Assembly (NCBI GenBank): GCA_963774275.1
Contig: CAVZEP010000033.1
Location: forward strand, 99,954 to 123,953
Direction of reading: 5' to 3'
Source of the DNA: an uncultured Chloroflexia bacterium
Lineage (GTDB): Bacteria > Chloroflexota > Anaerolineae > Anaerolineales > UBA4823
DNA: 24,000 bases
Both the position numbers and the translations under genes were made by a program. The notes beneath the pieces are model-generated. The model did no database searches and was not told where the DNA came from. It was given only the letters and a program-made list of their open reading frames with translations. Positions 1,116-14,860 of this stretch are shown here, one piece after another; position 1 is the stretch's first letter; the number at the start of each line of letters is the position of its first letter.

Positions 1116-1263
1116 AGACGAACCTCACTGGTTTGCGAATCATGTGAGATCCGCCGGTCAATAGTCCTTGAGGAGACCAGTTTTGAAAGATAAATCCAGG
1201 GAGAGAATGGATACGTAGTCTAAATAAATACTATATATATCGACCGAAAAAAAAGGAGAGATT

Positions 1264-1746
1264 ATGACCGACATTCCTGAGCTTACCGTCGGATCGCTGG
1301 CACCCGCTTTCAGTCTCCCTGCCAGTAATGGGACAGAAATATTGCTGGCAGATTTCCGTTCTAAGAATAATGTATATTTGTTCTTCGTGCGTGAATACAT
1401 CTGAATGCAGTGTCGAAGCCATGCTGCCCAGTTGGGGCGGCTGTATAAAGATTTTCAGGCTGAGAACTGTGAGATCCTTCTCATCCTGGGAGAACCCGTC
1501 GAAAAAGCCAGGCATTATGCTGAGATTCTGCATTTACCATTTCCAGTCCTGGCGGACCCTGCGCGGGATGTCTATCACCAATATGGACTGGAGAAAGCCA
1601 TGCTTTTCATTCAGCGCACCGCCTCCATTGTTATTGATCGCTCCGGGGTGATCCGCTACATAAAAAGTGTTACCAATCCCATGGTCTGGTTGCAGGAAAG
1701 CCAGGAGCTGTTGAGTTTCGTCAAGTCCATGCCAAAGGATGGCTGA
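1264..1746 (+). CDS. Peroxiredoxin-like (AhpC/TSA / redoxin fold) thiol-disulfide oxidoreductase with an in-frame TGA read as selenocysteine (UxxC motif)
   Basis: ATG at 1264 lies 5 nt after GGAG (1255-1258). 46 sense codons (MTDIPELTVGSLAPAFSLPASNGTEILLADFRSKNNVYLFFVREYI) run into TGA 1402-1404. This is the same frame as track ORF 1405-1746 (MQCRSHAAQLGRLYKDF...). Joined, the sequence reads ...LFFVREYI-U-MQC-RSH, with the TGA where the first Cys of the F-x-R-x-x-x-C-x-x-C redoxin motif normally sits. A SECIS-like hairpin follows. Confidence 0.72.
1420..1443 (+). promoter_or_regulatory. Putative bacterial SECIS hairpin
   Basis: Stem GCUGCCC (1423-1429) pairs with GGGCGGC (1435-1441), 7 bp including one U-G pair. 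The apical loop is AGUUG (1430-1434) and contains GU. Extension is possible via C1420-G1443 and A1421-U1442 with U1422 bulged. The stem starts 18 nt after the UGA and the loop 25 nt after it, within the spacing usually quoted for bacterial SECIS elements. Confidence 0.55.
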
Positions 1747-3072: not shown

Positions 3073-3777
3073 ATGGTAGCGTATTCCCTGTTACCTTTTC
3101 GGGAGGTGCAACGACATATGATTGGTATCACAGCGCAACAGTTCATGTGTAGGATACGTATGCTCAAACTCACCACACTATCTCTGTTCTTGACCTTTTT
3201 TAGCGCTCATCTAAATGGCAAAGCTGCTGACAGCTCAGTCACGAACGATGTTGAGCTGGCACGCCAAGCCGCTGGTAGTCCAGATGCCTTCACCGAGTTA
3301 TATCATCGCTATCTCCCCGGTATCTATCGCTACCACCTGGCGCGCACGGGTCACGTTCAGGAAGCTGAAGATCTGACTGCCCAAACCTTCCTCACTGCTC
3401 TGGAATCTATCCGGAGTTTCCGTGGGCAAGGCAGCTTTTCTTCCTGGCTGTTTGGTATTGCCAGCCACAAGCTGGTAGACCACTACCGCCGTAGCCGCAT
3501 TGAGCTACCCTTGGAAGAGGCGGAAACTCTGCACAGCCCCATCCCACTGCCAGAGGAAGCCACCCTGCAGCACCTGGAATTGGCACGCGTGGCGCAGGTG
3601 CTGCGCCTGATCAGTCCTGATCGGGCGGAAGCATTGGTACTCTGTCTATTTGGTGGATTGAGCCTGGCTGAGGCAGCCAAATCGGTGGGTAAGAGCGAGG
3701 CAGCAGTGAAGATGTTGGTTCATCGAGGCTTAAGTGACCTGCAGGAACGGTTAGCTGCACATCTGGAGGTGGCGTGA
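3073..3777 (+). CDS. ECF-type RNA polymerase sigma-70 family factor
   Basis: Region 2: FTELYHRYLPGIYRYHLARTGHVQEAEDLTAQTFLTALESIRSFRG...SWLFGIASHKLVDHYRR. Region 4 HTH: PDRAEALVLCLFGGLSLAEAAKSVGKSEAAVKMLVHRGLSDLQERL. The start is uncertain: ATG 3118 follows GGAGG, and ATG 3160 is also possible. The stop overlaps the next gene (GTGATGA). Confidence 0.85.
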   Translation: MVAYSLLPFREVQRHMIGITAQQFMCRIRMLKLTTLSLFLTFFSAHLNGKAADSSVTNDVELARQAAGSPDAFTELYHRYLPGIYRYHLARTGHVQEAEDLTAQTFLTALESIRSFRGQGSFSSWLFGIASHKLVDHYRRSRIELPLEEAETLHSPIPLPEEATLQHLELARVAQVLRLISPDRAEALVLCLFGGLSLAEAAKSVGKSEAAVKMLVHRGLSDLQERLAAHLEVA

Positions 3778-5624
3778 TGAACGAAAACCAAAAGCTTCCT
3801 TCGGCCAAAGAGCTTGCTGAGCTGTCCGCCTACTTAGCCGCCCGCGAGCGTGGGGTGCAGCCCGCAACCGACGCTCCTGGTTTTCCAGGCGGTCTTGCGG
3901 GGGCACTGCTCAAGTTGGCTGAAAGCACCGAGCCTGATCCTGATTTTGTTGCTCGGCTGGAGCGAGAGCTTCGCCAGGCAGCCAGGACAGGTGTGCACGC
4001 CTCCCGCACGAGTTGGCTGTCTGCGCTGTGGCAATCATTCTCCCTACCCGAAAGGAAAATTGCCATGAAACGCTTACTTACATTTGCAGTCGTCGGTATT
4101 ATCTTGTTCGTCGTATTGTGGGTGTCGATCCCATCTCTCTTCCCATCCTCCACCCAAACACAGGTGGCACTGGTTACCCCACCCACTCATACCCCCGCAC
4201 CCACACCCCTGTCGCCTCTCACCCCTACCGTGGTTCCGCCCACCTTGCCTTCACCGGTAGCGATCAACTTTACCCCTCAACCCATCCCCGTACAACCACC
4301 TGCTTTACCAGACCTGGTGAGTGCCCTTGGAGCAGGTTATGGAGGGTCGGGTGGAGGTAACCTGCCAGAAGGGTTGCCTCTCAGCCTGGCCACCCAGCTG
4401 CCTGCTGGTCCATCAGAGGTCACCGCTTATTACCGCCTGGAGAATACCCCACTGACCCTCGAAGAAGCCAGCCAGATTGCTGCTAAGTGGGGCCTGGAGC
4501 CAAAGTTGTATATGCCTGGCTGGATGCAGTCTATTTCACCTGACGAGATGGAGCGTAGCTACATCGCCGTGGATGGGATGCAGGCTCTCTCCATATGGAA
4601 CGGTGAGCTGTCTTACACGGACCTATCGATTTTTCCCATCTATGCTGGTCACCAATACCCGCAAATGGGTCTGCCCCCTTCAGACCAGGCAGCTGTGACT
4701 GCCACTCAATACCTGACCGAGCGCGGCATCCTGGATTACCCCTATATAGTTGACCTGAGTGGTTACGATTATGGATTGGTTAATTTCTACCGTCAGTTGG
4801 ACGACCTGACCATCAGTTTTCACGCCGCTTCGGTTAAGATCAATCCGCAAGGGCAGGTAGGCTCAGCCTGGGTCAGTCGGGAGCAGTACCAATCCGTTGG
4901 AACCTACCCGGTTTTGAGCGCCGAAAAAGCCTGGGACTTACTCGTCGCTGGGCAACCCAGTGATCAGCTGTCCATCTCATACTACCCGACTCAAGACGGC
5001 AACCCCCAGTATTGGGGTCGGGTATACCCGGTAGGTCAATCTGTTCACTTGTTTGGCTCTCCTACCTACTGGCTGTCAGCGGATACTGGGGCAATGCCCC
5101 ATGTGCAGCTGAATAACCTGGTGCTGGCAGGAGATGTGTCTGGTCTTATGGAATACCTCCAGGCGAACCCGGGCTATATCCACGCCTGGGGGGAGGTGCA
5201 GGACGTGGATGGCACTCGCCAGCTGCAGCTGGCAGGCTGGGAGCCTTTTGATGAATTCAGTGGCTACTTTGATGGCACCGTAGGGCGTACCGCTGAAGGT
5301 GACTTTCTTGAGCTGGGTGATGGAAGGCGATTGAGCCTGCCCAACCTGCCTGCCGATGTTCCAGACGGCATCCCACTCTACGCTGAAGGGGGACTGGTAG
5401 GTGATAGCCTGGAATGGTTCATCTTGCAGGTTCACACGTCTGATGAAGGGCAGATGCCACCCGACCTGAGCCAGGCTCAAGCGGTAATTGATAAGGTCGA
5501 GCTGGTTTACCTCGCCCCCGGTCTGAGCAACGTGTCCCCCGCATATGGCACTCGACCCGGCTTTCCGCATGCTGTTGCCTGCCTGGAGCTTCTCCGGACT
5601 GATTACCAATGTGGATGGAACTGA
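3774..5624 (+). CDS. Putative membrane-anchored anti-sigma factor with a large extracytoplasmic domain
   Basis: 4-nt start/stop overlap with the ECF sigma gene. ~100-aa cytoplasmic N-terminus, a single TM helix (LLTFAVVGIILFVVLWVSIPSLF), a Pro-rich linker and a ~430-aa external domain with no family I recognise. No ZAS HxxxCxxC motif. The call is by position and topology only. Confidence 0.5.
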   Translation: MMNENQKLPSAKELAELSAYLAARERGVQPATDAPGFPGGLAGALLKLAESTEPDPDFVARLERELRQAARTGVHASRTSWLSALWQSFSLPERKIAMKRLLTFAVVGIILFVVLWVSIPSLFPSSTQTQVALVTPPTHTPAPTPLSPLTPTVVPPTLPSPVAINFTPQPIPVQPPALPDLVSALGAGYGGSGGGNLPEGLPLSLATQLPAGPSEVTAYYRLENTPLTLEEASQIAAKWGLEPKLYMPGWMQSISPDEMERSYIAVDGMQALSIWNGELSYTDLSIFPIYAGHQYPQMGLPPSDQAAVTATQYLTERGILDYPYIVDLSGYDYGLVNFYRQLDDLTISFHAASVKINPQGQVGSAWVSREQYQSVGTYPVLSAEKAWDLLVAGQPSDQLSISYYPTQDGNPQYWGRVYPVGQSVHLFGSPTYWLSADTGAMPHVQLNNLVLAGDVSGLMEYLQANPGYIHAWGEVQDVDGTRQLQLAGWEPFDEFSGYFDGTVGRTAEGDFLELGDGRRLSLPNLPADVPDGIPLYAEGGLVGDSLEWFILQVHTSDEGQMPPDLSQAQAVIDKVELVYLAPGLSNVSPAYGTRPGFPHAVACLELLRTDYQCGWN

Positions 5625-6872: not shown

Positions 6873-8174
6873 TCATTCAGAAAGCAAATGTTTTGTAAGC
6901 CAATCCTGGATCACCGCACCCTCCTGTCCAAGATAACGTTCTACAGACTGGCGGTAAGATGAAAAATACTGTTTCACCCATCCGGTTGGGAGCCCATGAT
7001 TCTTAAGTAAGCCAATCAGCCAGGTGACCGCTGGATCTAAAAAAGAAATATCACCCAGTCTCAATGCAGAAGCAATGTATTGGCTGAGATTCATGTTGGC
7101 GACTTCCAAATAATTAGGCTCGATACCCTCATCTTGCATAGCAGAAAAGATATGTGCAATTATGAGTGCCTGATTCTTATTGAACTGCGCCAATGTTCGA
7201 GAATATTCGGGCGAGATTGGCTGAGTTTCCGGTAGGGAAGGAGACGTTACAACCAAGCGCTCGATGATCTGAGGAACCAGCATCAAGTCAGATCCCAGGT
7301 AATAACCAGAAATACACTTGGTGGCGGCAGGAATTTTTGTGAATATTCCACCTCCGAAAGCCATTGGAACACCTTGAGAGGCGATGTTTTCAGACATTGA
7401 GCGCAGGGAGGCTGCACTATTGAGTGTTTGAGCAGAAGAGAGGATTAATATTGGCGAGGTAGCTTGGATGGTGACATCCAGAGCATCGAGAGGCACACTG
7501 GCTCCCAGATAGATCATATCCCAACCACGCCTTCTAAGCAGGTAAGTAATCAACAGAAGGATGAAGTCGTGCGCCTCACCGGGTGGGCATGCAGCAAGGA
7601 TTCGCCCAGGTCGCGCAGGAGGTGTGGAAGAGATGGCAGACAGCAGGGTGTTGATCCTGCGCATGGCGATTGCGGAGGCAAAATGCTCCTGTTGAACGCT
7701 GATAGACCCGGTGTACCAGCCCTCTCCAATCTGTACCAGGCCTTTCCGCAGCACTTCCGTACAGACCGTCTCCGGGGATGCAATCGAGAAAGCCTGATCC
7801 AGTGTTTGGTTGGCAGCCTGGTCGTCAAAAACCAGGCAGGCAGCCAGCCATGCATCACGATGCTCATCGAGCATGGTTCCACCTGAGCCTGAGACCAGAA
7901 GGGGAGCATAGGTTGATTGTGCAGATTTAATTTGGCTTTTTGGCTGGCCCTTCCACATCTCTACTGCACTGCTGATGCTCAAGCCCTCTTTTTGCCTCTC
8001 GATCAGCCATTTGAGCATTTCGATATCCTGCCTGGAGTAAAGGCGATGACCACCGGGAGTCCGCTGTGGCTTGAGGAGCCCATAACGACGCTCCCATGCC
8101 CGTAAAGTTGCCGGGCTTAAACCTACTTCGTTAATTACCGCTTTCAGGTTATAGATGGGAGTATTGTCTGCCAT
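6873..8174 (-). CDS. litR: CarH/LitR-family light-responsive transcriptional regulator (MerR HTH + adenosylcobalamin-binding domain) with an extra ~124-aa C-terminal domain
   Basis: MerR HTH: YNLKAVINEVGLSPATLRAWERRYGLLKPQRTPGGHRLYSRQDIEMLKWL. Four-helix-bundle W-x9-E-H signature: GEGW(153)YTGSISVQQE(163)H(164)FAS. B12 lower-ligand motif: ACPPGE-A-H(202)DF...YLGASVPLDAL, with the H202 codon at 7569-7571. I chose start ATG 8174 (MADNTPIY). The track start 8279 would overlap the upstream gene by 37 nt and adds non-conserved residues. Confidence 0.85.
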   Translation of the reverse strand: MADNTPIYNLKAVINEVGLSPATLRAWERRYGLLKPQRTPGGHRLYSRQDIEMLKWLIERQKEGLSISSAVEMWKGQPKSQIKSAQSTYAPLLVSGSGGTMLDEHRDAWLAACLVFDDQAANQTLDQAFSIASPETVCTEVLRKGLVQIGEGWYTGSISVQQEHFASAIAMRRINTLLSAISSTPPARPGRILAACPPGEAHDFILLLITYLLRRRGWDMIYLGASVPLDALDVTIQATSPILILSSAQTLNSAASLRSMSENIASQGVPMAFGGGIFTKIPAATKCISGYYLGSDLMLVPQIIERLVVTSPSLPETQPISPEYSRTLAQFNKNQALIIAHIFSAMQDEGIEPNYLEVANMNLSQYIASALRLGDISFLDPAVTWLIGLLKNHGLPTGWVKQYFSSYRQSVERYLGQEGAVIQDWLTKHLLSE

Positions 8175-8242
8175 ATGGATGCCTATTTTGATAAAAAAAG
8201 TCTTTCCACAGCCCAATTCCGATGGATTACATTCCCGTGAGT

Positions 8243-9013
8243 TTATACCGGTGCCAGGGTGCCTGCAAAGATGATCCATGCCAGGACGGTCTTGGCAGCC
8301 AGGCTCAGGATGATATACACACGCTCGCCAAATAGATAATCCTTCCAGGGACCGACCTTCTTATATTGCAGCACCATATTCACTGCGAAGATGTTGAAGA
8401 AGACAAACAAGGTGGGGATGATGGCGTACACAAAAGCGGGTGGTTTTCCACCTTCACCAGCCAATGAGCCGATGAAATAGGTCACGATCACAATCCAGGG
8501 GATGATGCCAGCGATGGACCCATAGATGAATGCGGTCCAATTCGTCTTTTGCGTGTTCTGGTTATGGAGCTCCATCATGATTCCGAACAGGTTCATCATG
8601 GCATTGATACCAAAGATGAGTATGATGGCACCCAGGTCATAAATGCCCACCAGCATGCCAATCAGAACGATCATCACAGAAGAGGAAAGCGCATATTCAT
8701 AAAACCGTACTGGGTTCATGCCCTTCTTCAAGTTCGATACGTAAAGCTTGTTCCCGATTGTAGCCAGGAAAAAGTGCGCTACAGCCGAGATTAGCAGAAA
8801 GACCGCCACCGCAGGTCCAAAGCGAAGTTCAGCAGCCAATTTAAGGTCGGGGACCAGGGCCATTTTGGTCAAATCGAATTTCAGGAAGCTGGTATAAATC
8901 GGATAGGCGGTATCATTGCTTAGTACAATCATCAGGATGCCCTGTACCAGGTGTAAAAAGCCCATCACCAGGTTGAAACGGCGTAATCCCTTGAATTTCT
9001 TGTCGTTGTCCAT
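8243..9013 (-). CDS. Heliorhodopsin (retinal-binding 7-TM photoreceptor, inverted topology)
   Basis: By-eye alignment to heliorhodopsin 48C12:
- RFNLVMGFLHLVQ..LSND vs NFNRIAGVFHLLQ..LAND
- VRFYEYALSSSVMIVLIG vs FRWVEYSLSSSVMIVLIA
- GIIPWIVIV vs GIVPWIGLL
- FVYAIIPTLFVFFNIFA vs FVYGIIISLFLFFNSFA
- GERVYIILSLAAKTVLAWIIFAGTLAPV vs GERAYIVLSLVAKSALAWQIFSGTLIPA
Schiff-base Lys is K241 (codon 8291-8293). The counterion Glu is E106, and H21 and H80 are conserved. RBS GGAG upstream. Confidence 0.9.
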   Translation of the reverse strand: MDNDKKFKGLRRFNLVMGFLHLVQGILMIVLSNDTAYPIYTSFLKFDLTKMALVPDLKLAAELRFGPAVAVFLLISAVAHFFLATIGNKLYVSNLKKGMNPVRFYEYALSSSVMIVLIGMLVGIYDLGAIILIFGINAMMNLFGIMMELHNQNTQKTNWTAFIYGSIAGIIPWIVIVTYFIGSLAGEGGKPPAFVYAIIPTLFVFFNIFAVNMVLQYKKVGPWKDYLFGERVYIILSLAAKTVLAWIIFAGTLAPV

Positions 9014-9098
9014 TTTTATTCTCCATTCTACTTATGATTTTTTCCCCAAAAATGTCCCTCGTTTGGTGAATGAGCATTTAGTGGGTATTTATGGTAAA

Positions 9099-9142
9099 TT
9101 GTACATATATTGTATAGTTAATAATAACATATTGTATATATA
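9099..9142 (-). promoter_or_regulatory. Putative CarH/LitR operator: four phased 11-bp direct repeats
   Basis: Read on the minus strand: tAtaTatACAa (9142-9132), tAtgTtaTTAt (9131-9121, degenerate), tAacTatACAa (9120-9110), tAtaTgtACAa (9109-9099). Three of the four fit nAnnTnnACAn exactly. On the plus strand, TTGTAYA recurs at 9099, 9110 and 9132, which is an exact 11-bp register. The array lies 86-129 nt upstream of the heliorhodopsin ATG. Confidence 0.5.
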
Positions 9143-9149
9143 TTGGCAA
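9121..9149 (-). promoter_or_regulatory. Putative sigma70-type promoter of the heliorhodopsin-litR unit
   Basis: Minus strand: TTGCCA (9149-9144), a 17-nt spacer, then TATTAT (9126-9121). The direct repeats occupy the spacer, the -10 and the predicted +1 region. The region is AT-rich, so a chance match is possible. Confidence 0.35.
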
Positions 9150-9302
9150 GGAAATTGGGATTAATAGTTGCTTAAAAAAGTAGAAAATTAATCACGATAA
9201 CCGGGAGCGTTAATACATGGATCTCCTGATTTAGAACTGGTTACCGCCGGATAATATAGTACCGTTGTGTAAAAAGAAATCCTGGGGGTGAGGCGCTTTA
9301 TT

Positions 9303-10793
9303 TCAATCCAGCTCAGTCAGCTCATCCATGATTCGTTTTGCCACCAGGCGGGCAGAGATCATGGAGGTCGGGATACCTGTGCCGGGATGAGTGCTTGCGC
9401 CTACGAAGTATAAATTGTGCAAGCGCGGGTGTCGGTTGGAAGGGCGAAAATATCCCAATTGGGTCAAGTTATGCGATAAGCCGTGTGTGGAACCGTTCAC
9501 CAGGTTATATCGTTTACGCCAGGAAAGGGGTGTGAAAGACGTCTCAAATTTGATATGGGCTTCAAGATCTGTTATGCCAAGAGTCCGCAGCCGGCGGAAC
9601 ACGTGTGCGCGTGCCAGGTCTGTCAGGTTATCCCAATCCTGTTCCCCATTCTCAGACAGGTGCCCCACGGGTACGATGGCGATCAGGGTATCTTCACCTG
9701 GGGGTGCCATGGAGGGGTCAAGCCGCGTCGGAGCGTGGACATACAGGCTGGGATTGGCAGGTAGATCAAGGTCACGAATGATGGAATCAAAATTAGCTCG
9801 ATAATCATCCGCCAGGAAAAGGGTGTGTGGACCCAGGGTCTCGTAGGGTTTATCCACGCCCCAAAAGAAACTGATTACTGAGCATGAATAGTTCTTGCGG
9901 GATAATTTTTCTGCCAGGCCATCCATCGGCAGCAGGCTCTGGTATACATACGGCAGGTCGGCATTTGCCAGGAACACGTCCGCCCCCATTTTTAGGTTAT
10001 GTTCAAGTGTCACATCCTTGACGTGACCACTATCGACATTGATCCCCTCCGCGGTAGTATCAAAAGCAAATTCCACTCCAGCCTCACGAGCCAGGGCCAT
10101 GAGCGCATCCACGATGCTGTACATTCCTCCTTTCGGATACCACACCCCATGCGCTAGCTCTGTATACTGCATCAAGGAAAAGGTTGCAGGACCTTCAAAA
10201 GGGCTTAACCCCATGTACACGTCCTGGAAAGTGAATGCCGCCTTTAACCGTGGATTGTCGAAATATGCCGACATGTTGGCATAGTGTTTTACCAATGGTT
10301 TTAGCTGAAAAAGCAGTGGGATATTACCCAGGGAAAAGAATTCGGAAAATCGGCGAAAATCACGGTTGACTAACTTTTCCATCCCCAAACGATAGTGCCG
10401 TTCGCCCTCCTCATGATAGCGCATGAAACCCTGATATGCGCCTGCTTCAATTGATTCCAGCTGATCCCTCATGGATTGCATGTCCGAGGTGAGTGCCAGC
10501 TGGCTGCCATCGTCGAAAACCAGGCGATACGTCGGGTCCAACTGCTGCAGATTGAGTAAATTACTCATCGAGGTACCTAATGCTGCGAATTCTGCTTCAT
10601 AGACTCGTGGCATCACCAGCAGGGTTGGACCGGTATCAAAATGGTGACCCTCACGCTCAATCCAATCACAGCGCCCACCCGGGTTGGGGTTCTTTTCCAC
10701 CACAGTGACATGCAAGCCATGAGATGCCAGGTGGGTCGCTGCGCAGATCCCACCTATCCCCGCGCCGATGATAACCACTGATTTAGATTTCAT
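9303..10793 (-). CDS. crtI: Phytoene desaturase (bacterial CrtI type)
   Basis: N-terminal FAD fold VVIIGAGIGGICAATHLASHGLHVTVVEKNPNPGGRC. FDTGPTLL motif. C-terminal bacterial phytoene dehydrogenase signature NLYFVGASTHPGTGIPTSMISARL. The ATG overlaps the crtB stop (ATGA at 10790-10793). Confidence 0.9.
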   Translation of the reverse strand: MKSKSVVIIGAGIGGICAATHLASHGLHVTVVEKNPNPGGRCDWIEREGHHFDTGPTLLVMPRVYEAEFAALGTSMSNLLNLQQLDPTYRLVFDDGSQLALTSDMQSMRDQLESIEAGAYQGFMRYHEEGERHYRLGMEKLVNRDFRRFSEFFSLGNIPLLFQLKPLVKHYANMSAYFDNPRLKAAFTFQDVYMGLSPFEGPATFSLMQYTELAHGVWYPKGGMYSIVDALMALAREAGVEFAFDTTAEGINVDSGHVKDVTLEHNLKMGADVFLANADLPYVYQSLLPMDGLAEKLSRKNYSCSVISFFWGVDKPYETLGPHTLFLADDYRANFDSIIRDLDLPANPSLYVHAPTRLDPSMAPPGEDTLIAIVPVGHLSENGEQDWDNLTDLARAHVFRRLRTLGITDLEAHIKFETSFTPLSWRKRYNLVNGSTHGLSHNLTQLGYFRPSNRHPRLHNLYFVGASTHPGTGIPTSMISARLVAKRIMDELTELD

Positions 10794-11760
10794 CTTTCCT
10801 CGATTCGGTCTGATAAAGCCACCTGTTCACCTGGCTCTAGTTTCATCCAGGGAAAGTTAGCTATCGAAGTAAAGACCCTCCAGGCTATCCATAAACCAGC
10901 CTTGACGCTTTTTCGTTCGGGATATTCCGGTCGAAGGTAGTATTGATCCTGCTCAATCCTTCTGAGCATCCACTCAAAACGGGCAAGATAAGCGTAAGCT
11001 GCCAGTCGACTGCGCAGGTTTTTAACCTGGGCCATGTACTTCCTGCCACCGCTGAAATAGTGGCGGGCTAACTCCACTCTCCCGAATACCCACTTCCGGA
11101 ACGACAGGCGTGTGCAATTCTGCTAACGAAATCTTCTCTGATTGGATATATTCGCCGGGAATATTGAAATATCCTGCGGATATATCTTCCACTGTATCGC
11201 GCAGCATATGCACCATATGCGCACCGCACACTGCATCGTAACGGGTTTCAGAAATGGGAGGGGGATCTTTGTGACCGATCAAGTAAAACAGCACCTCCGT
11301 CACAGCCGTGGAGAGTAAATGTGTATATTCGGTTAATTCGGCGTGGGAAATAACTCGACCACAGCGTTCCACGTCAAATGCCATCACCTTCATCATATTG
11401 CTTAGATAAAACTGCAGCCCACTGTGTTCTTCCTGATCGTTTCGGACCAAATCCACCAGCATCTGCTCCTCAGGGCTCACATCTCCCGGAAAATTCCCCT
11501 GATAACAAGCCTCCAGAAACGCTTGCTGATGTTGTATCAGGGTGATCTTTTCTTGTTTTGTACCTGAATTGCAGTCAAGAAGATCGTCCAACCATCGAAA
11601 ATAGGCATAAGCCCGAAAAGCATCGTCCACACGCTCTCGATCCGCTAAGAGACGGAATGTGTAATACGTCTGCTTGCTGCCTGCTCTGGTAATCCTGGCA
11701 GGTAAACCTGGCTCCCCCGATTGCGTAGAGTGCTTTGAGCGATATAACAGTTTTGAACAT
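10790..11760 (-). pseudogene. crtB: Phytoene/squalene synthase family gene (CrtB-like) interrupted by two apparent +1 frameshifts
   Basis: Three reading segments cover one family-typical protein:
- MFKTVISLKALYAIG... starts at ATG 11760.
- ...GLPARITRAGSKQTYYTFRLLADRERVDDAFRAYAYFRWLDDLLD...MVHMLRDTVEDISAGYFNIPGEYI is the frame of track ORF 11022-11630, open upstream to 11750 with no ATG/GTG/TTG.
- SFRKWVFGRVELARHYFSGGRKYM...AAYAYLARFEWMLRRIE is track ORF 10790-11077.
The shifts lie at the C5 run 11714-11718 and within about 11101-11120. Confidence 0.8.
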
Positions 11761-12026: not shown

Positions 12027-13148
12027 ATGGATGCAAAAATGCAAGCCACTGCATTGGCCAGCTTGAAAGATGAGCTCAATGGAGGCTACCTGTACGATGC
12101 CCTAGCCCAAGCGGAGAAAGATACCCGCCTGGCAGAAGTTTATCGGCGGATGGCAGTCGTGGAGCGCAAGCATGCTGCCGTATGGACGGAAAGGTTAAAA
12201 GCTGCCGGGGTGGCAATCCCTGAGTTTGTGCCTAATTGGCGTAGCCGAACCCTTGCCTGGGCAGCCAAACGCCTGGGTGTGGCAGCAGTTTTACCCACGG
12301 TCATTGGGAATGAACGGAAAGATAGCCGTAAATATGCTCACACACCCGGTGGTGCAGAGATGGCAGCGGATGAATCATCCCATAACCGCTTGCTGAGTCG
12401 CGTGGCTTCCACCATGAAGGGTGGGATGGAGGGTGGGGCGCTGGCTCAACTGGAGGGAAGGCATCGGGCGGGTGGTGGCAATGCATTGCGCGCCGCGGTA
12501 CTTGGTGCAAATGATGGCCTGGTATCAAATTTGAGCCTGGTTATGGGCGTTGCTGGGGCTGCGCTTAATAATTCAGCCATCCTGATCACCGGTTTTGCTG
12601 GGTTACTGGCTGGTGCAATCTCGATGGCCCTGGGGGAATGGCTCTCGGTACAAAGCTCAAGGGAATTGTACAAGCATCAGATTGGCATTGAAAAAGCTGA
12701 GCTGGCAGCCGCCCCAGAAGAAGAAGCGGAAGAGTTGGCATTGATCTATGAGGCACGTGGCGTACCCAAGGATGAGGCCCAACGCATGGCACAGCACATT
12801 ATCAGTGACCCGGCTTCAGCCCTCGAAACGTTGGCACGCGAAGAGCTTAATGTGAATCCATCCGAGTTGGGTGGTTCAGCCTGGGAGGCAGCCCTAACAT
12901 CCTTCTTTCTTTTCACCATTGGGGCGATCATCCCTGTGATTGCCTTTACTTTCCTCACCGGTTTTACTGCGGTGATTGTCAGCATGGTATTGAGCGGGGT
13001 CGGGCTATTTATCATCGGTGCGGGTATTACCCTGTTCACCGGGCGAAATTTGCTTTATTCTGGTGTGAGGCAGGTATTATTTGGCCTGATTGCAGCCATG
13101 GTCACCTATGGTATCGGCCGGTTGGTCGGAGGTAATCTGGGCGGATAG
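12027..13148 (+). CDS. mbfA: Erythrin-VIT1 fusion (MbfA-like membrane-bound ferritin / VIT-family iron exporter)
   Basis: N-terminal ferritin-like domain (LNGGYLYDALAQAEKDTRLAEVYRRMAVVERKHAAVW). C-terminal VIT1/CCC1 domain (ALRAAVLGANDGLVSNLSLVMGVAGA, GEWLSVQSSRE, TM helices at the C-terminus). RBS GGAGG at 12017-12021. Confidence 0.8.
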   Translation: MDAKMQATALASLKDELNGGYLYDALAQAEKDTRLAEVYRRMAVVERKHAAVWTERLKAAGVAIPEFVPNWRSRTLAWAAKRLGVAAVLPTVIGNERKDSRKYAHTPGGAEMAADESSHNRLLSRVASTMKGGMEGGALAQLEGRHRAGGGNALRAAVLGANDGLVSNLSLVMGVAGAALNNSAILITGFAGLLAGAISMALGEWLSVQSSRELYKHQIGIEKAELAAAPEEEAEELALIYEARGVPKDEAQRMAQHIISDPASALETLAREELNVNPSELGGSAWEAALTSFFLFTIGAIIPVIAFTFLTGFTAVIVSMVLSGVGLFIIGAGITLFTGRNLLYSGVRQVLFGLIAAMVTYGIGRLVGGNLGG

Positions 13149-13195: not shown

Positions 13196-13465
13196 TCAGG
13201 CTGGACACCGATCAGGGAGCGGTATGGCAATTTTCGAAGACCGCCGAGCGAGTTTTAGATAGAAACGTTCATAGCCTGGGCTTTCCATGAATGCCCACAG
13301 GCTGCCCATCTCTCCAGTCTGCCCGCATGAGGCGCATTCGATTGACCCCACTGTCATCTCTACATCGAACACTTCGTGCAGAATACCCGCCATCGCATTG
13401 CCATCCAGCATCAAGGATACGCTTTCCTCAAATAGGTTGGTTTCCATTCTATCTCCTGCCATCAT
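13196..13465 (-). CDS. DUF6510-like small protein
   Basis: LDGNAMAGILHEVFDVEMTVGSIECASCGQTGEMGSLWAF... and the C-terminal ...IAIPLPD resemble DUF6510 proteins that follow ferredoxin reductase genes. The usual second CxxC appears to be missing. 4-nt overlap with the upstream reductase gene. Family call from memory. Confidence 0.5.
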   Translation of the reverse strand: MMAGDRMETNLFEESVSLMLDGNAMAGILHEVFDVEMTVGSIECASCGQTGEMGSLWAFMESPGYERFYLKLARRSSKIAIPLPDRCPA

Positions 13466-14235
13466 GAACTTCCAGTTGGTCCAAAGCGTTCTGTACGGAT
13501 CTGGCTCGCAGGGATGTCAAGCGTCACCAGCCCATTGGCAACTCCTTCCACGAGCGTAGTTGGACCGCAGATATAAGCTTTGACTTCATTCCCGAGCGGT
13601 CTTGCAACCTCCTCCAGCATTTGCATATCGATCCGTCGCCTATAGCCGTCCCATCCCTGTGGTTGTTCACGCGTCAGGACATGGAATACCTCCAGGCCTG
13701 AGCCATTTGCCCTTAAATAATCAATTTCGTCTCGATAAATAATATCTTCATATGTACGGGAGCTGTAAAGCAATCGCACCGGCACTTTAGAGCCTGAAGC
13801 ACACCGGTGGCGGATCATCGCCATCAACGGGACGATGCCTGAACCTCCGGCGACCAGGAGCAGTGGTCCTCCCATGCTCGCTTCCCACACGAAATACCCG
13901 CCAATCGGACCGCGTAGTTCCACCTGGTCACCCACAATGAGGAGATCATGCAAATACGTGGAAACTTCCCCATCTTCCAGGCGTTCAATGGTGAGCTCTA
14001 TCTCGCCAATCTGCTCGGGGGTGGATGCGATTGAATAACTGCGCTGAGCCTGATATCCATCCGGGGCAGTCAACCGAACATCATAGTGCTGGCCTGCCCG
14101 ATGAGGTCTCCAATCTGGCAATGCCAGGGTAAAGGTCTTGACGCTTCGCGTCTCCTGCCTGACCTTGACCACAGTGGATATCCGCCATTCCAACACTCGT
14201 GGCAGCACACCATCTTTAATCAGTTCTGTCTCCAT
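13462..14235 (-). CDS. FNR-like ferredoxin reductase (FAD/NAD(P)-binding oxidoreductase)
   Basis: FAD motif RSYSIAS. GEVSTYLH. NAD(P) motif LLLVAGGSGIVPLMAMIRH. C-terminal ICGPTTLVE...ERFG. I chose start ATG 14235 (METELIKDG); the track start 14313 extends 26 poorly coding codons into the upstream gene. Confidence 0.8.
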   Translation of the reverse strand: METELIKDGVLPRVLEWRISTVVKVRQETRSVKTFTLALPDWRPHRAGQHYDVRLTAPDGYQAQRSYSIASTPEQIGEIELTIERLEDGEVSTYLHDLLIVGDQVELRGPIGGYFVWEASMGGPLLLVAGGSGIVPLMAMIRHRCASGSKVPVRLLYSSRTYEDIIYRDEIDYLRANGSGLEVFHVLTREQPQGWDGYRRRIDMQMLEEVARPLGNEVKAYICGPTTLVEGVANGLVTLDIPASQIRTERFGPTGSS

Positions 14236-14860
14236 AATAGCGTTCCTCTTTCCATGGATCACCGTGATTGTTGTAACCCAATGATTCCCAAAAGCCTGGC
14301 TTGTCAGTTTCAATTAGGGTCAATCCACGTACCCATTTTGCGCTTTTCCAAAAGTAGAGGGCCGGTACAACCAGGCGCGCCGGGCCTCCATGCTCTGGTG
14401 CCAGTGGAGCATTGTTGTATAGATATCCTATAAATGCCTTCCCACCCATGATTTCGTTCAATGGCATGTTAGTAGTGTATCCCCCGTCACAGAATGCGGT
14501 CACGAAATGTGCATTTGGATCGACCTCCACCAATTCCAACAAGATATCGACGCTGACTCCCTCCCATTGGGTATCCAGTTTCGACCATTTTGTAACACAG
14601 TGGATGTCTACCGTGAAATTGCGGGAAGGTAGGCGTTGAAATTCGGACCAAGACCAGCGTACAGGTTGCCTCACCAGACCATTGATCTCAAAGTTCCACC
14701 GGTCTAGATGTGTGCGTGGAGTAGGTCCGGCTGAAAGGACGGGGAAATCATTGGTGACATATTGCCCAGGTGGTACCCGGTCGGGAGGGTTGTCTAATCT
14801 GCGTTTTCCTAAAAATCCACGGGAATGAAATATTCTGCTCATTTTGCCCACCCAAATCAT
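14216..14860 (-). CDS. Sulfite-oxidase-like molybdopterin oxidoreductase (small, catalytic domain only)
   Basis: SUOX-fold Moco domain: FPVLSAGPTP...W.F.I.G, the Mo-ligand Cys context VDIHCVTKWSKLDTQWEGV, EHGGPARLVVPALYFWKSAKWVRGL and PGFWESLGYNNHGDPWKEERY. The start may be ATG 14842. Confidence 0.85.
   Translation of the reverse strand: MIWVGKMSRIFHSRGFLGKRRLDNPPDRVPPGQYVTNDFPVLSAGPTPRTHLDRWNFEINGLVRQPVRWSWSEFQRLPSRNFTVDIHCVTKWSKLDTQWEGVSVDILLELVEVDPNAHFVTAFCDGGYTTNMPLNEIMGGKAFIGYLYNNAPLAPEHGGPARLVVPALYFWKSAKWVRGLTLIETDKPGFWESLGYNNHGDPWKEERYYGDRTD

What the first reader, a model, noticed from the sequence alone, without database searches (positions are those of the whole stretch)
1264..1746. 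Hidden selenoprotein: peroxiredoxin-like gene with an in-frame UGA at a UxxC redox motif plus a SECIS hairpin
The ORF track shows only the part after the TGA (1405-1746). Upstream in the same frame are a good RBS, an ATG at 1264 and 46 codons with the typical AhpC/TSA N-terminus (G-x-x-AP-x-F-x-L ... VYLFF). TGA 1402-1404 falls exactly where redoxin-fold homologues carry the first Cys of CxxC, giving U-M-Q-C.

Eighteen nt downstream, a 7-9 bp GC-rich stem begins, with a GU-containing AGUUG apical loop and a possible bulged U. This matches the bacterial SECIS architecture. Prx-like UxxC selenoproteins are a known family, but this one would be mis-annotated as a truncated gene by standard pipelines. 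It also implies the host has Sec machinery.
Basis: partly seen in the sequence, partly recalled or inferred. Interest (0 to 1): 0.7.

Follow-up and report, generated by a model that had tools for sequence, protein, structure and literature searches.

The report
Selenocysteine peroxiredoxin-like redox gene, mis-annotated
This is a real but ordinary selenoprotein gene: a small peroxiredoxin-like redox enzyme of Chloroflexi whose active site is written with a UGA "stop" codon read as selenocysteine. Public databases therefore split it into two fragments.

Summary
Window 1264-1746 (+) is one 160-codon reading frame with a Shine-Dalgarno site, an in-frame TGA at 1402-1404 and a 7-bp G+C-rich hairpin (1423-1441, loop AGUUG) starting 18 nt after it.

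The joined protein matches Pfam AhpC/TSA across the TGA.

- **Conserved TGA.** In 89 of 90 related loci held at that stage (Anaerolineae/Chloroflexi MAGs and sediment or wetland metagenomes) the same column is TGA, never TAA or TAG. The one exception then, and two Cys-form loci fetched later, carry TGT/TGC. More distant homologues have Cys there in 18 of 21, giving CxxC.
- **Upstream part is translated.** The 36 upstream codons vary mainly at third positions and contain no in-frame stop in 80 loci.
- **Hairpin selected at the RNA level.** It shows compensatory changes, is more stable than synonymous recoding predicts, and keeps an invariant AGUU loop despite free codon choice.
- **UGA is still a stop.** TGA ends 12 of 21 ORFs examined in the window, so the code is not reassigned.

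[quoted passage not shown] It is not a true peroxiredoxin.

Databases hold it as 46-aa and 113-aa fragments, or with Trp at the site. I could not check the Sec machinery in the same genome. Interest is modest.

The parts
1253..1260 (+). Shine-Dalgarno-like AAGGAGAG, 3 nt upstream of the ATG
   Evidence: Read directly from the sequence.
1264..1746 (+). Complete selenoprotein coding sequence of 160 codons plus stop. It encodes a Prx-like, AhpC/TSA-fold UxxC oxidoreductase.
   Evidence: Translation. Pfam PF00578 E = 1.1e-23 over residues 9-133, and PF08534. Homologues are 58-93% identical over residues 1-160 across the TGA. The upstream part evolves as coding sequence.
1402..1404 (+). In-frame TGA, read as the Sec codon (U47), first position of U-M-Q-C
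   Evidence: TGA in 89 of 90 loci held, and never TAA or TAG. TGT/TGC in the three Cys-form loci. Cys in 18 of 21 more distant homologues.
1411..1413 (+). TGT, encoding Cys50, the proposed resolving Cys of UxxC. It aligns with the peroxidatic Cys position of Prx.
   Evidence: Invariant in alignment A1 and nearly invariant in A3.
1423..1441 (+). SECIS-type hairpin: 5' arm 1423-1429, apical loop AGUUG 1430-1434, 3' arm 1435-1441
   Evidence: Fold. 77 of 79 Sec loci have a hairpin of at least 5 bp with loop AGUU(G/A). Covariation. Synonymous-codon test. Loop codons CAG 80/80 and UUR 80/80, against 60% and 28% elsewhere in the genes.
1744..1746 (+). True stop codon (TGA) of the gene
   Evidence: It shows that UGA also terminates in this organism.

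Best explanation
Window 1264-1746 is one gene for a 160-residue cytoplasmic thioredoxin-fold (AhpC/TSA-type) redox protein. Its active site is Sec47-Met-Gln-Cys50.

**Decoding.** UGA 1402-1404 is decoded as selenocysteine. The hairpin 1423-1441, a 6-7 bp G+C-rich stem capped by an AGUU(G) loop whose first base lies 25 nt after the UGA, acts as the bacterial SECIS. It would recruit SelB-GTP-Sec-tRNA(Sec) to the ribosome in competition with RF2.

**Catalysis.** Sec47 sits at the N-cap of the first active-site helix. This is the position of the nucleophilic first Cys of thioredoxin-like CxxC and of Sec in glutathione peroxidases. It would attack an oxidised substrate, either a disulfide/sulfenate or a peroxide. 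Cys50 would resolve the intermediate as an intramolecular selenenylsulfide, and a thioredoxin-type reductant would recycle it.

**What is shown:**
- one reading frame under purifying selection on both sides of a conserved TGA
- Cys in the same column in homologues
- an RNA hairpin selected independently of the protein sequence
- normal use of TGA as a stop elsewhere in the window

**What is inferred:**
- actual Sec insertion and the presence of selA/selB/selD/tRNA-Sec in this genome
- the catalytic cycle, the substrate and the reductant
For: **The frame and fold**
- Sequence and translation.
- The Pfam AhpC/TSA match spans the TGA.

**Conservation of the TGA**
- TGA is present in 89 of 90 loci with the in-frame N-terminus conserved, and the column is never TAA or TAG.
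- The loci come from Anaerolineae/Chloroflexia MAGs and from 80 metagenome contigs 58-93% identical at protein level.
- Upstream codon-position diversity is 0.27/0.25/0.57, against 0.29/0.20/0.55 downstream. There are 0 in-frame stops, against 46 and 203 in the other two frames.

**Cys in homologues**
- Cys at the column in the Cys-form loci and in 18 of 21 more distant homologues.

**The hairpin**
- 82.9% of cells are paired. 28 cells have changes on both sides, against 8.9 +/- 2.4 in shuffles, and all slid registers score worse.
- A Val codon GUN pairs with Arg CGA, and a Gly codon GGC in the 5' arm pairs with Gly GGC in the 3' arm (Fisher 5e-8 and 4e-7).
- The synonymous-codon null gives mean z = -1.53, and 37% of loci reach p <= 0.05 against 4-6% in controls. 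The only Cys form in that test, L003, gives z = -0.27.
- The loop codons are CAG 80/80 and UUG/UUA 80/80, although Leu is UUR only 28% of the time elsewhere. Two of the three Cys forms use CUC/CUU at that Leu.

**Other points**
- TGA ends 12 of 21 ORFs examined in the window.
- In the AF2 model of Cys-form P0062 (pLDDT 87) the first Cys lies at the N-cap of helix 50-61.
- The fold is closest to BCP/PrxQ and ResA/TlpA.
- Prx-like UxxC selenoproteins are an established predicted family (PMC1088965, PMC2398784, PMC9312934, PMC13188914).
- SelB genes are reported in Anaerolineales single-cell genomes and in Anaerolinea thermophila (PMC4959059).
Against: - No selA, selB, selD or tRNA-Sec was found in the window or in about 257 kb of related loci. 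The rest of the genome could not be searched.
- The hairpin of the single window sequence is not more stable than dinucleotide shuffles.
- RNAalifold recovers only 2 consensus pairs, because the family uses two registers with 5-nt and 4-nt loops.
- Rfam returns no match.
- The covariation counts are not corrected for phylogeny.
- There is no experimental evidence for Se incorporation, and no assay distinguishes peroxidase from disulfide-reductase activity.
- Only three Cys-form loci were available as a contrast for the SECIS.
Confidence: 0.9

Rival explanations
1. The gene is a pseudogene, or the TGA is an error: a nonsense mutation or sequencing mistake in a TGC/TGT Cys codon. On this reading only the 113-aa remnant, or nothing, is made.
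For: A single base separates TGA from TGT/TGC. Gene callers report a 113-aa product.
Against: - The same TGA occurs in 89 of 90 independent loci down to 58% protein identity.
- The upstream 36 codons are under purifying selection and contain no in-frame stop.
- The 113-aa remnant would lack the strands preceding the active site and the first residue of the CxxC motif.
Confidence: 0.01
2. It is a split gene: two separate polypeptides of 46 and 113 aa, made by termination at UGA and re-initiation at the adjacent AUG (UGAAUG), which assemble non-covalently.
For: - In the window and in 66 of 80 loci the codon after TGA is ATG.
- Gene callers annotate exactly these two products.
Against: - In at least 7 loci the next codon cannot start translation: CAG, CTC, ATT, ATA, GTC, GCG, GCA.
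- The stop is always TGA, whereas a plain stop should drift to TAA or TAG.
- Met at this position is simply the 'x' of UxxC, and it is also Met in the Cys form YNCMQC.
- The split would remove the catalytic first residue of CxxC, which homologues conserve as Cys.
- It gives no reason for RNA-level selection on a hairpin 18 nt downstream.
Confidence: 0.02
3. The UGA is read through as a standard amino acid, either Trp, Cys or Gly by near-cognate or suppressor decoding, or under a reassigned code 4/25, without any selenium.
For: - JGI gene calls on short contigs translate the codon as Trp.
- Sec machinery was not demonstrated for this genome.
Against: - TGA is the commonest ordinary stop in the window (12 of 21), including this gene's own stop.
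- The JGI 'W' calls also read through the true stop and are an artefact of code choice.
- Homologues carry Cys at the column, never Trp or Gly.
- A conserved hairpin with a G-containing small loop at SECIS distance is what Sec decoding requires.
- Sec decoding is known in Chloroflexi, including Anaerolineales (PMC1794560, PMC4959059, PMC13326102).
Confidence: 0.04
4. The hairpin is only a by-product of the conserved peptide H-A-A-Q-L-G-R-L and has no RNA function. UGA recoding, if it occurs, depends on something else.
For: - The amino acids are also conserved in the Cys forms, and their codons favour G+C.
- The Cys form L003 can still form a weaker hairpin of -8.2 kcal/mol.
- The single-sequence z-score is 0.02.
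Against: - With the protein held fixed, real sequences are about 4 kcal/mol more stable than synonymous recodings. This holds only in this region and not in five control regions.
- Amino-acid changes in one arm (Ala to Val, Ala to Gly) are matched by synonymous changes in the other arm.
- Leu is UUR in 80 of 80 loci and Gln is CAG in 80 of 80, against 28% and 60% elsewhere. Two of the three Cys forms have lost UUR.
Confidence: 0.05

Closest known systems
Prx-like thiol:disulfide oxidoreductase selenoprotein family (pfam00578, UxxC/UxxU; 'Prx-like 1' of the GOS study). Described by Zhang & Gladyshev in PMC1088965, PMC1794560 and PMC2398784, and reviewed in PMC9312934 and PMC13188914.
   Same: - AhpC/TSA (PF00578) domain.
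- A thioredoxin-like UxxC motif in place of the Prx TxxC/TxxU motif.
- Cys-containing homologues.
- A bacterial SECIS hairpin directly after the UGA, with a small G-containing apical loop.
- Function known only by prediction.
   Different: - The reference members are from Deltaproteobacteria (Geobacter WP_010940744.1) and marine metagenomes.
- This is an Anaerolineae/Chloroflexi clade from sediments, wetlands and soils, and 89 of the 90 loci sampled by similarity to the window are Sec forms.
- It carries its own invariant residues (R43, E44, Q49, R51, H53, Q117-R118-T119-A120-S121).
- I could not compare it directly with the reference sequence.
BCP/PrxQ-type peroxiredoxins (for example S. solfataricus Bcp1, PDB 3drn) and the Sec-containing peroxiredoxin PrxU (TxxU)
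   Same: - Best structural matches: TM 0.80-0.85, and sequence E = 1e-10.
- Cys50 aligns with the peroxidatic Cys.
   Different: - The defining PxxxTxxC motif is absent. Arg43 replaces the Pro and Sec47 replaces the Thr.
- In PrxU the Sec is at the peroxidatic position (TxxU). Here it lies three residues earlier.
- NCBIfam PrxU scores 21.5 bits against a cut-off of 270, and BCP scores 44 against 140.
- The invariant Arg118 is one residue out of register with the catalytic Arg of Prx in the pairwise alignment, so equivalence is not shown.
ResA/TlpA/DsbE thiol:disulfide oxidoreductases (CxxC, AhpC/TSA-related thioredoxin fold)
   Same: - The CxxC-R motif aligns residue for residue (WCPYCR against IUMQCR).
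- Structural matches have TM 0.67-0.81.
   Different: - Those proteins are membrane-anchored or periplasmic. This one has no signal peptide or hydrophobic N-terminus.
- By counting from the conserved Asp, the position of their cis-Pro is occupied by the invariant Thr119.
- NCBIfam ResA scores 38 bits against a cut-off of 170.
SelL / SelL-related redox proteins (NCBIfam NF040769; PRX-like2, Pfam AhpC-TSA_2)
   Same: - Best NCBIfam hit (E = 8e-18), with a weak PF13911 hit.
- Prx-like fold with the redox motif at the same place.
   Different: - The score of 64.7 bits is well below the family cut-off of 120.
- Eukaryotic SelL carries UxxU (my own knowledge: Shchedrina et al. 2007).
E. coli fdhF-type bacterial SECIS
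   Same: - A hairpin inside the coding sequence just 3' of the UGA.
- A short G+C-rich upper stem.
- G and U in a small apical loop.
   Different: - The stem starts 18 nt after the UGA. In fdhF the spacer to the minimal upper stem is 11 nt (my own knowledge).
- The bulged U is not conserved here.
- Two loop registers, AGUUG/A and AGUU, coexist in the family.

Membership tests
Bacterial selenoprotein gene (Sec-UGA decoding) | In-frame UGA conserved among orthologues, with coding conservation on both sides | tested here: met
   89 of 90 loci have TGA. The codon-position pattern is the same on both sides, and there are 0 in-frame stops upstream.
Bacterial selenoprotein gene (Sec-UGA decoding) | Cys-containing homologues aligned at the UGA column | tested here: met
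   P0058, P0062 and P0096 carry TGT/TGC. 18 of 21 homologues at 30-58% identity have Cys.
Bacterial selenoprotein gene (Sec-UGA decoding) | SECIS hairpin immediately downstream of the UGA, with a small apical loop containing G | tested here: met
   Stem 1423-1441 with loop AGUUG. It is conserved in 77 of 79 Sec loci, covaries, and exceeds the synonymous-codon null.
Bacterial selenoprotein gene (Sec-UGA decoding) | selA, selB, selD and tRNA-Sec in the same genome | not testable with these tools
   None in the window or the held loci. The source contig could not be retrieved. The only support is at lineage level (PMC4959059, PMC1794560, PMC13326102).
Bacterial selenoprotein gene (Sec-UGA decoding) | Selenium actually incorporated at the UGA position | not testable with these tools
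   Needs 75Se labelling or mass spectrometry.
Prx-like thiol:disulfide oxidoreductase selenoprotein (pfam00578, UxxC/UxxU) | pfam00578 (AhpC-TSA) domain | tested here: met
   PF00578 E = 1.1e-23, 84 bits against a cut-off of 26, covering the full profile 1-124.
Prx-like thiol:disulfide oxidoreductase selenoprotein (pfam00578, UxxC/UxxU) | Sec in a thioredoxin-like UxxC motif rather than the TxxU motif of Prx | tested here: met
   U47-M-Q-C50. U aligns with the Thr of the Prx motif and with the first Cys of the ResA-like CPYC.
Prx-like thiol:disulfide oxidoreductase selenoprotein (pfam00578, UxxC/UxxU) | Direct homology to the family's reference member (WP_010940744.1) | not tested
Peroxiredoxin proper (BCP/PrxQ, AhpC; including Sec-Prx PrxU) | PxxxTxxC(U) active-site motif, with the peroxidatic residue at the last position | tested here: not met
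   The motif reads R43-E-Y-I-U47-M-Q-C50, so both the Pro and the Thr are replaced.
Peroxiredoxin proper (BCP/PrxQ, AhpC; including Sec-Prx PrxU) | Score above the NCBIfam equivalog cut-offs | tested here: not met
   BCP NF006960 scores 44.1 against 140, PrxU NF040737 21.5 against 270, and AhpC TIGR03137 20 against 272.
SelL-related redox protein (NF040769) | Score above the family cut-off | tested here: not met
   64.7 bits against a cut-off of 120, with only residues 13-114 matched.
ResA/TlpA thiol-disulfide oxidoreductase | CxxC motif on an AhpC/TSA-like thioredoxin fold | tested here: met
ResA/TlpA thiol-disulfide oxidoreductase | Extracytoplasmic location (signal or membrane anchor), and family score | tested here: not met
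   The N-terminus MTDIPELTVGSLAPAF is not hydrophobic and the Pfam domain starts at residue 9. NF002854 scores 38.3 bits against 170.

The most novel reading that the evidence does not exclude
The Anaerolineae clade may be a functionally distinct subfamily that depends on selenium and not merely another Prx-like UxxC protein. Three observations allow this reading:
- 89 of the 90 loci sampled by similarity to the window are Sec forms.
- The active site is a hybrid. It has neither the Prx Pro/Thr nor the Trx-type cis-Pro, and instead carries an invariant R43-E44 ... U-x-Q-C-R-x-H ... Q-R-T-A-S signature.
- The SECIS has a sequence-invariant AGUU loop that could define the recognition rule of Chloroflexi SelB.

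Such an enzyme might work as a GPx-like selenoperoxidase built on a Prx scaffold.
Probability: 0.2. Interest if true: 0.45.

Novelty: new member of a known kind. Interest (0 to 1): 0.3.

Why it matters
**Annotation.** This gene and hundreds of its relatives in Chloroflexi MAGs and metagenomes are stored as a 113-aa "peroxiredoxin" or "hypothetical protein" plus an orphan 46-aa ORF, or as a Trp-containing protein called under genetic code 4. Any redox or selenium inventory of Anaerolineae that relies on these records under-counts selenoproteins and mis-describes the active site.

**Biology.** The gene marks its hosts as Sec-decoding organisms. These are abundant sediment and wetland Anaerolineae.

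**A clean data set.** About 80 diverged sequences share one SECIS with an invariant AGUU loop. That could be used to define what a Chloroflexi SelB recognises.

The finding does not change the current picture of selenoproteins. UxxC Prx-like selenoproteins have been known from computational surveys since 2005.

Tried and rejected
- **Single-sequence folding against dinucleotide shuffles.** It gave z = 0.02 and was uninformative for a short G+C-rich coding segment. I replaced it with a synonymous-codon null.
- **RNAalifold on the 80-sequence alignment.** It found only 2 consensus pairs. The family uses two registers (5-nt loop AGUUG/A in 50 loci, 4-nt loop AGUU in 28), so one consensus structure under-describes it.
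Its outermost pair holds in only 28 of 80 sequences, so I rejected it as a family feature.
- **Rfam at gathering thresholds.** No match.
- **tRNA scans of the window and 33 loci.** No tRNA-Sec.
- **Retrieving the 141-kb source contig.** This failed, so the source genome and its Sec genes remain unseen.
- **Functional link through neighbouring genes.** The ECF sigma and anti-sigma-like pair downstream, and the phosphoesterase upstream, recur only in about 10 close relatives. That gives no basis for a functional inference.
- **Promoter and terminator scan of 1050-2200.** Nothing found.
- **Arg118 as the Prx catalytic Arg.** I therefore do not claim the equivalence.
Full report
**1. What is in the sequence**

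On the + strand an AAGGAGAG Shine-Dalgarno-like motif (1253-1260) precedes ATG 1264. Forty-six sense codons follow, then TGA at 1402-1404, and the same frame stays open to TGA 1744-1746. The mechanical ORF list shows only 1405-1746, 113 aa.

With the TGA bridged, the 160-residue product matches Pfam AhpC-TSA PF00578 over residues 9-133 (E = 1.1e-23, full profile length) and Redoxin PF08534. The domain therefore runs straight across the TGA. The local motif is V-R-E-Y-I-U-M-Q-C-R-S-H.

Eighteen nucleotides after the TGA a 7-bp stem forms: GCUGCCC 1423-1429 pairs with GGGCGGC 1435-1441, with one G.U pair, around the loop AGUUG 1430-1434.

**2. Is the TGA a conserved coding position?**

A search of 5.8 billion proteins returned more than 100 clusters of exactly 113 aa. 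These begin at the Met after the TGA and are 75-88% identical to the window. It also returned a few "full-length" proteins of about 160 aa.

The full-length JGI proteins show Trp at the critical column. Retrieving one contig shows that the codon is TGA and that the same gene call also reads through the true stop. The "W" is therefore an artefact of calling short contigs under genetic code 4.

I collected DNA for 7 species-representative MAGs, all labelled Chloroflexia, Anaerolineae or Anaerolineaceae, and for 80 metagenome contigs from sediments, wetlands and soils that are 58-93% identical at protein level.
- Of the 90 loci with the motif at that stage, 89 have TGA at the column and none has TAA or TAG.
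- The one exception (L003, TGT) and two loci fetched later (L091 and L093, both TGC) are natural Cys forms reading YNCMQC, YTCFQC and TSCIQC.
- An exhaustive HMMER search with a Cys form, followed by alignment, shows Cys at this column in 18 of 21 homologues at 30-58% identity. The family ancestor is therefore CxxC.

The 36 codons upstream of the TGA behave as coding sequence. Nucleotide diversity at codon positions 1/2/3 is 0.268/0.246/0.571, against 0.287/0.197/0.554 for the 100 codons downstream. There are no in-frame stops in 80 distinct loci, against 46 and 203 stops in the other two frames.

**3. Is the hairpin a SECIS or a by-product of the peptide?**

The stem lies in codons for the conserved peptide H-A-A-Q-L-G-R-L, so conservation alone proves nothing. 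The single-sequence dinucleotide-shuffle z-score is also nil (0.02). Three further tests address this.

(a) *Synonymous recoding.* I kept each protein sequence and resampled codons from the family's own usage.
- Real sequences fold at -11.3 kcal/mol on average, against -7.1 for recoded ones (mean z = -1.53).
- 37% of loci reach p <= 0.05, against 4-6% in five control regions of the same genes.
- The window itself has z = -2.33, p = 0.025, whereas the Cys form L003 has z = -0.27.

(b) *Covariation on a gap-free 80-sequence alignment.*
- 82.9% of cells are paired, and 28 cells changed on both sides against 8.9 +/- 2.4 in shuffles (0 of 500 reach it). All slid registers are worse.
- When the first Ala codon becomes Val (GCN to GUN), the Arg codon opposite is CGA in 11 of 15 loci, against 3 of 64 otherwise (Fisher 5e-8).
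- When the second Ala becomes Gly (GGC), the Gly codon opposite is GGC in 10 of 10 loci, against 12 of 69 otherwise (4e-7).
- These are amino-acid changes in one arm matched by synonymous changes in the other. The counts are not corrected for phylogeny.

(c) *Loop sequence.*
- Gln is CAG in 80 of 80 loci and Leu is UUG/UUA in 80 of 80. Elsewhere in these genes CAG is 60% of Gln codons and UUR is 28% of Leu codons.
- Two of the three Cys forms use CUC/CUU at that Leu.
- 77 of 79 Sec loci form a hairpin of at least 5 bp, capped by AGUUG/A (50 loci) or AGUU (28 loci).

The two registers explain why RNAalifold recovers almost no consensus. The lower 2-bp extension with a bulged U is not conserved.

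The first loop base lies 25 nt after the UGA. From my own knowledge of the bSECISearch consensus, the accepted range is 16-37 nt from the UGA to a 3-14 nt apical loop containing G. [quoted passage not shown]

**4. Alternatives**

- *Pseudogene or sequencing error.* Excluded by section 2.
- *Termination and re-initiation at UGA-AUG.* This is contradicted by loci where the next codon is CAG, CTC, ATT, ATA, GTC, GCG or GCA, by the exclusive use of TGA, and by the RNA-level selection on the hairpin.
- *Genome-wide UGA reassignment.* Excluded, because TGA ends 12 of the 21 ORFs examined in the window, including this gene.
- *Read-through with a standard amino acid.* This cannot be formally excluded without the genome or a protein, but it has nothing in its favour.

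**5. What I could not test**

The window holds no tRNA, no Rfam match and no Sec-machinery gene. Neither do the related loci.

Support at lineage level comes from the literature:
- Chloroflexi were scored as Sec-decoding as early as 2006 (PMC1794560).
- Dehalococcoidia MAGs are among the most selenoprotein-rich bacteria in BSepDB (PMC13326102).
- SelB genes are reported in Anaerolineales single-cell genomes and in Anaerolinea thermophila (PMC4959059).

**6. How it probably works**

*Decoding (inferred).* SelB-GTP-Sec-tRNA(Sec) binds the AGUU-capped hairpin as the ribosome reaches UGA 1402 and inserts Sec47.

*Position in the fold.*
- Pairwise alignments place U47 on the Thr, and C50 on the peroxidatic Cys, of the Prx PxxxTxxC motif (3drn).
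- They place U47 and C50 exactly on the two Cys of the ResA/TlpA-type W-C-P-Y-C-R motif (3hdc).
- An AlphaFold model of the natural Cys form P0062 (pLDDT 87, pTM 0.85) puts the first Cys at the N-cap of helix 50-61.
- The closest solved folds are BCP/PrxQ peroxiredoxins (TM 0.80-0.85), followed by ResA/DsbE.

*Catalysis (inferred).* Sec therefore occupies the nucleophile position of thioredoxin-like CxxC proteins. From my own knowledge (Copley et al. 2004), this is also the position of Sec in glutathione peroxidase.
- The likely cycle is attack by the selenolate on a disulfide, sulfenate or peroxide, resolution by Cys50 to a selenenylsulfide, and re-reduction by a thioredoxin-type partner.
- The protein has no signal peptide, so it should be cytoplasmic.
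- Whether it is a peroxidase or a disulfide reductase is open.
- The invariant R118 is one residue out of register with the Prx catalytic Arg, so I do not claim equivalence.

**7. Comparison with known families**

The published definition of the "Prx-like thiol:disulfide oxidoreductase" selenoprotein family is pfam00578 plus UxxC/UxxU. It is described as distantly homologous to Prx, with a thioredoxin-like UxxC instead of TxxU (PMC1088965, PMC9312934, PMC13188914). "Prx-like 1" was among the most abundant selenoprotein families in ocean metagenomes (PMC2398784). Both defining features are met here.

It is not a member of several neighbouring families:
- *Peroxiredoxin proper, or PrxU.* The motif is not met, and the NCBIfam scores are far below the cut-offs.
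- *SelL-related NF040769.* This is the best NCBIfam hit, but it scores 64.7 bits against a cut-off of 120.
- *ResA/TlpA.* There is no export signal, and the score is 38 bits against 170.

**8. Database status**

The exact full-length sequence is absent from the 15-billion-protein collection. The 113-aa and 46-aa pieces are both present, from the same 141-kb contig. NCBI records of relatives are named "hypothetical protein" at 113 aa, and the JGI records are named "peroxiredoxin".

**9. Verdict**

The object is a new member (an Anaerolineae clade) of a selenoprotein family that has been known computationally for two decades.
- Confidence that this is a Sec-decoded gene with a functional SECIS: about 0.9.
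- Confidence in the specific chemistry: lower.
- Interest is modest (0.3). Its value lies in correcting annotations and in a tidy comparative SECIS data set, not in new biology.

Noticed in passing
window 6873-11630 (- strand): A light-related gene cluster lies here. It holds a MerR plus B12-binding regulator (CarH/LitR-like, 6873-8279), a heliorhodopsin (8243-9013, PF18761 E = 2e-101), a CrtI-type phytoene desaturase (9303-10793) and a phytoene synthase. A B12-dependent light regulator next to a heliorhodopsin and carotenoid genes in an Anaerolineae genome could bear on the unknown function of heliorhodopsin.
   Followed up: partly
window 10790-11630 (- strand): The phytoene/squalene synthase (PF00494) appears split. 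ORF 11022-11630 matches profile positions 22-189 of 263, and the continuation 10790-11077 is in a different frame and overlaps it by 56 nt. This could be a frameshift (real, programmed or an assembly error) or a mis-called start.
   Followed up: no
L001 3229-3711 versus window 1264-1746: A second contig (ENA ERZ25039461) encodes an identical 113-aa C-terminal part (99% DNA identity after the TGA). Its 46-codon N-terminal part differs at 9 residues (82% DNA identity over window 1302-1401). Further upstream the DNA is unrelated, with an ABC transporter in place of the phosphoesterase. The window also carries an extra 259-aa ORF (2128-2907) before the shared ECF sigma gene. This suggests a recombination breakpoint inside the 5' part of the selenoprotein gene.
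   Followed up: partly
L002 377-868 and the other JGI short contigs behind P0001-P0006 and P0009: JGI gene calls on contigs of about 1 kb used a code in which TGA encodes Trp. This gives proteins with W at the Sec position, and the calls also read through the real TGA stop (C-terminal 'GWFA'). It is a systematic artefact that hides selenoproteins as Trp proteins.
   Followed up: yes
window 3073-5624 (+); L001, L004, L006, L012, L013, L024, L025, L029: An ECF sigma factor and an overlapping 616-aa protein with no Pfam match (anti-sigma-like, with a proline-rich linker) lie downstream of the selenoprotein gene in about 10 close relatives. Upstream, a PF04185 phosphoesterase recurs in another 10 or so. 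The synteny is limited to close relatives.
   Followed up: partly
L091/L092 and L093/L094 (Cys-form loci): The Cys-form orthologues sit in a different neighbourhood. An M42 peptidase lies directly upstream, and in L091 a luciferase-like monooxygenase and a HIT protein lie downstream. The Sec and Cys forms are therefore not simply allelic at one locus.
   Followed up: no
window 12027-13148 (+) and 13462-14860 (-): Other redox and metal genes lie nearby: a ferritin/rubrerythrin-like plus VIT1 iron-transporter fusion, a sulfite-oxidase-type molybdopterin oxidoreductase with an FAD/NAD reductase partner, a DinB/mycothiol-S-transferase-like protein and a glyoxalase. No link to the selenoprotein is shown.
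   Followed up: no
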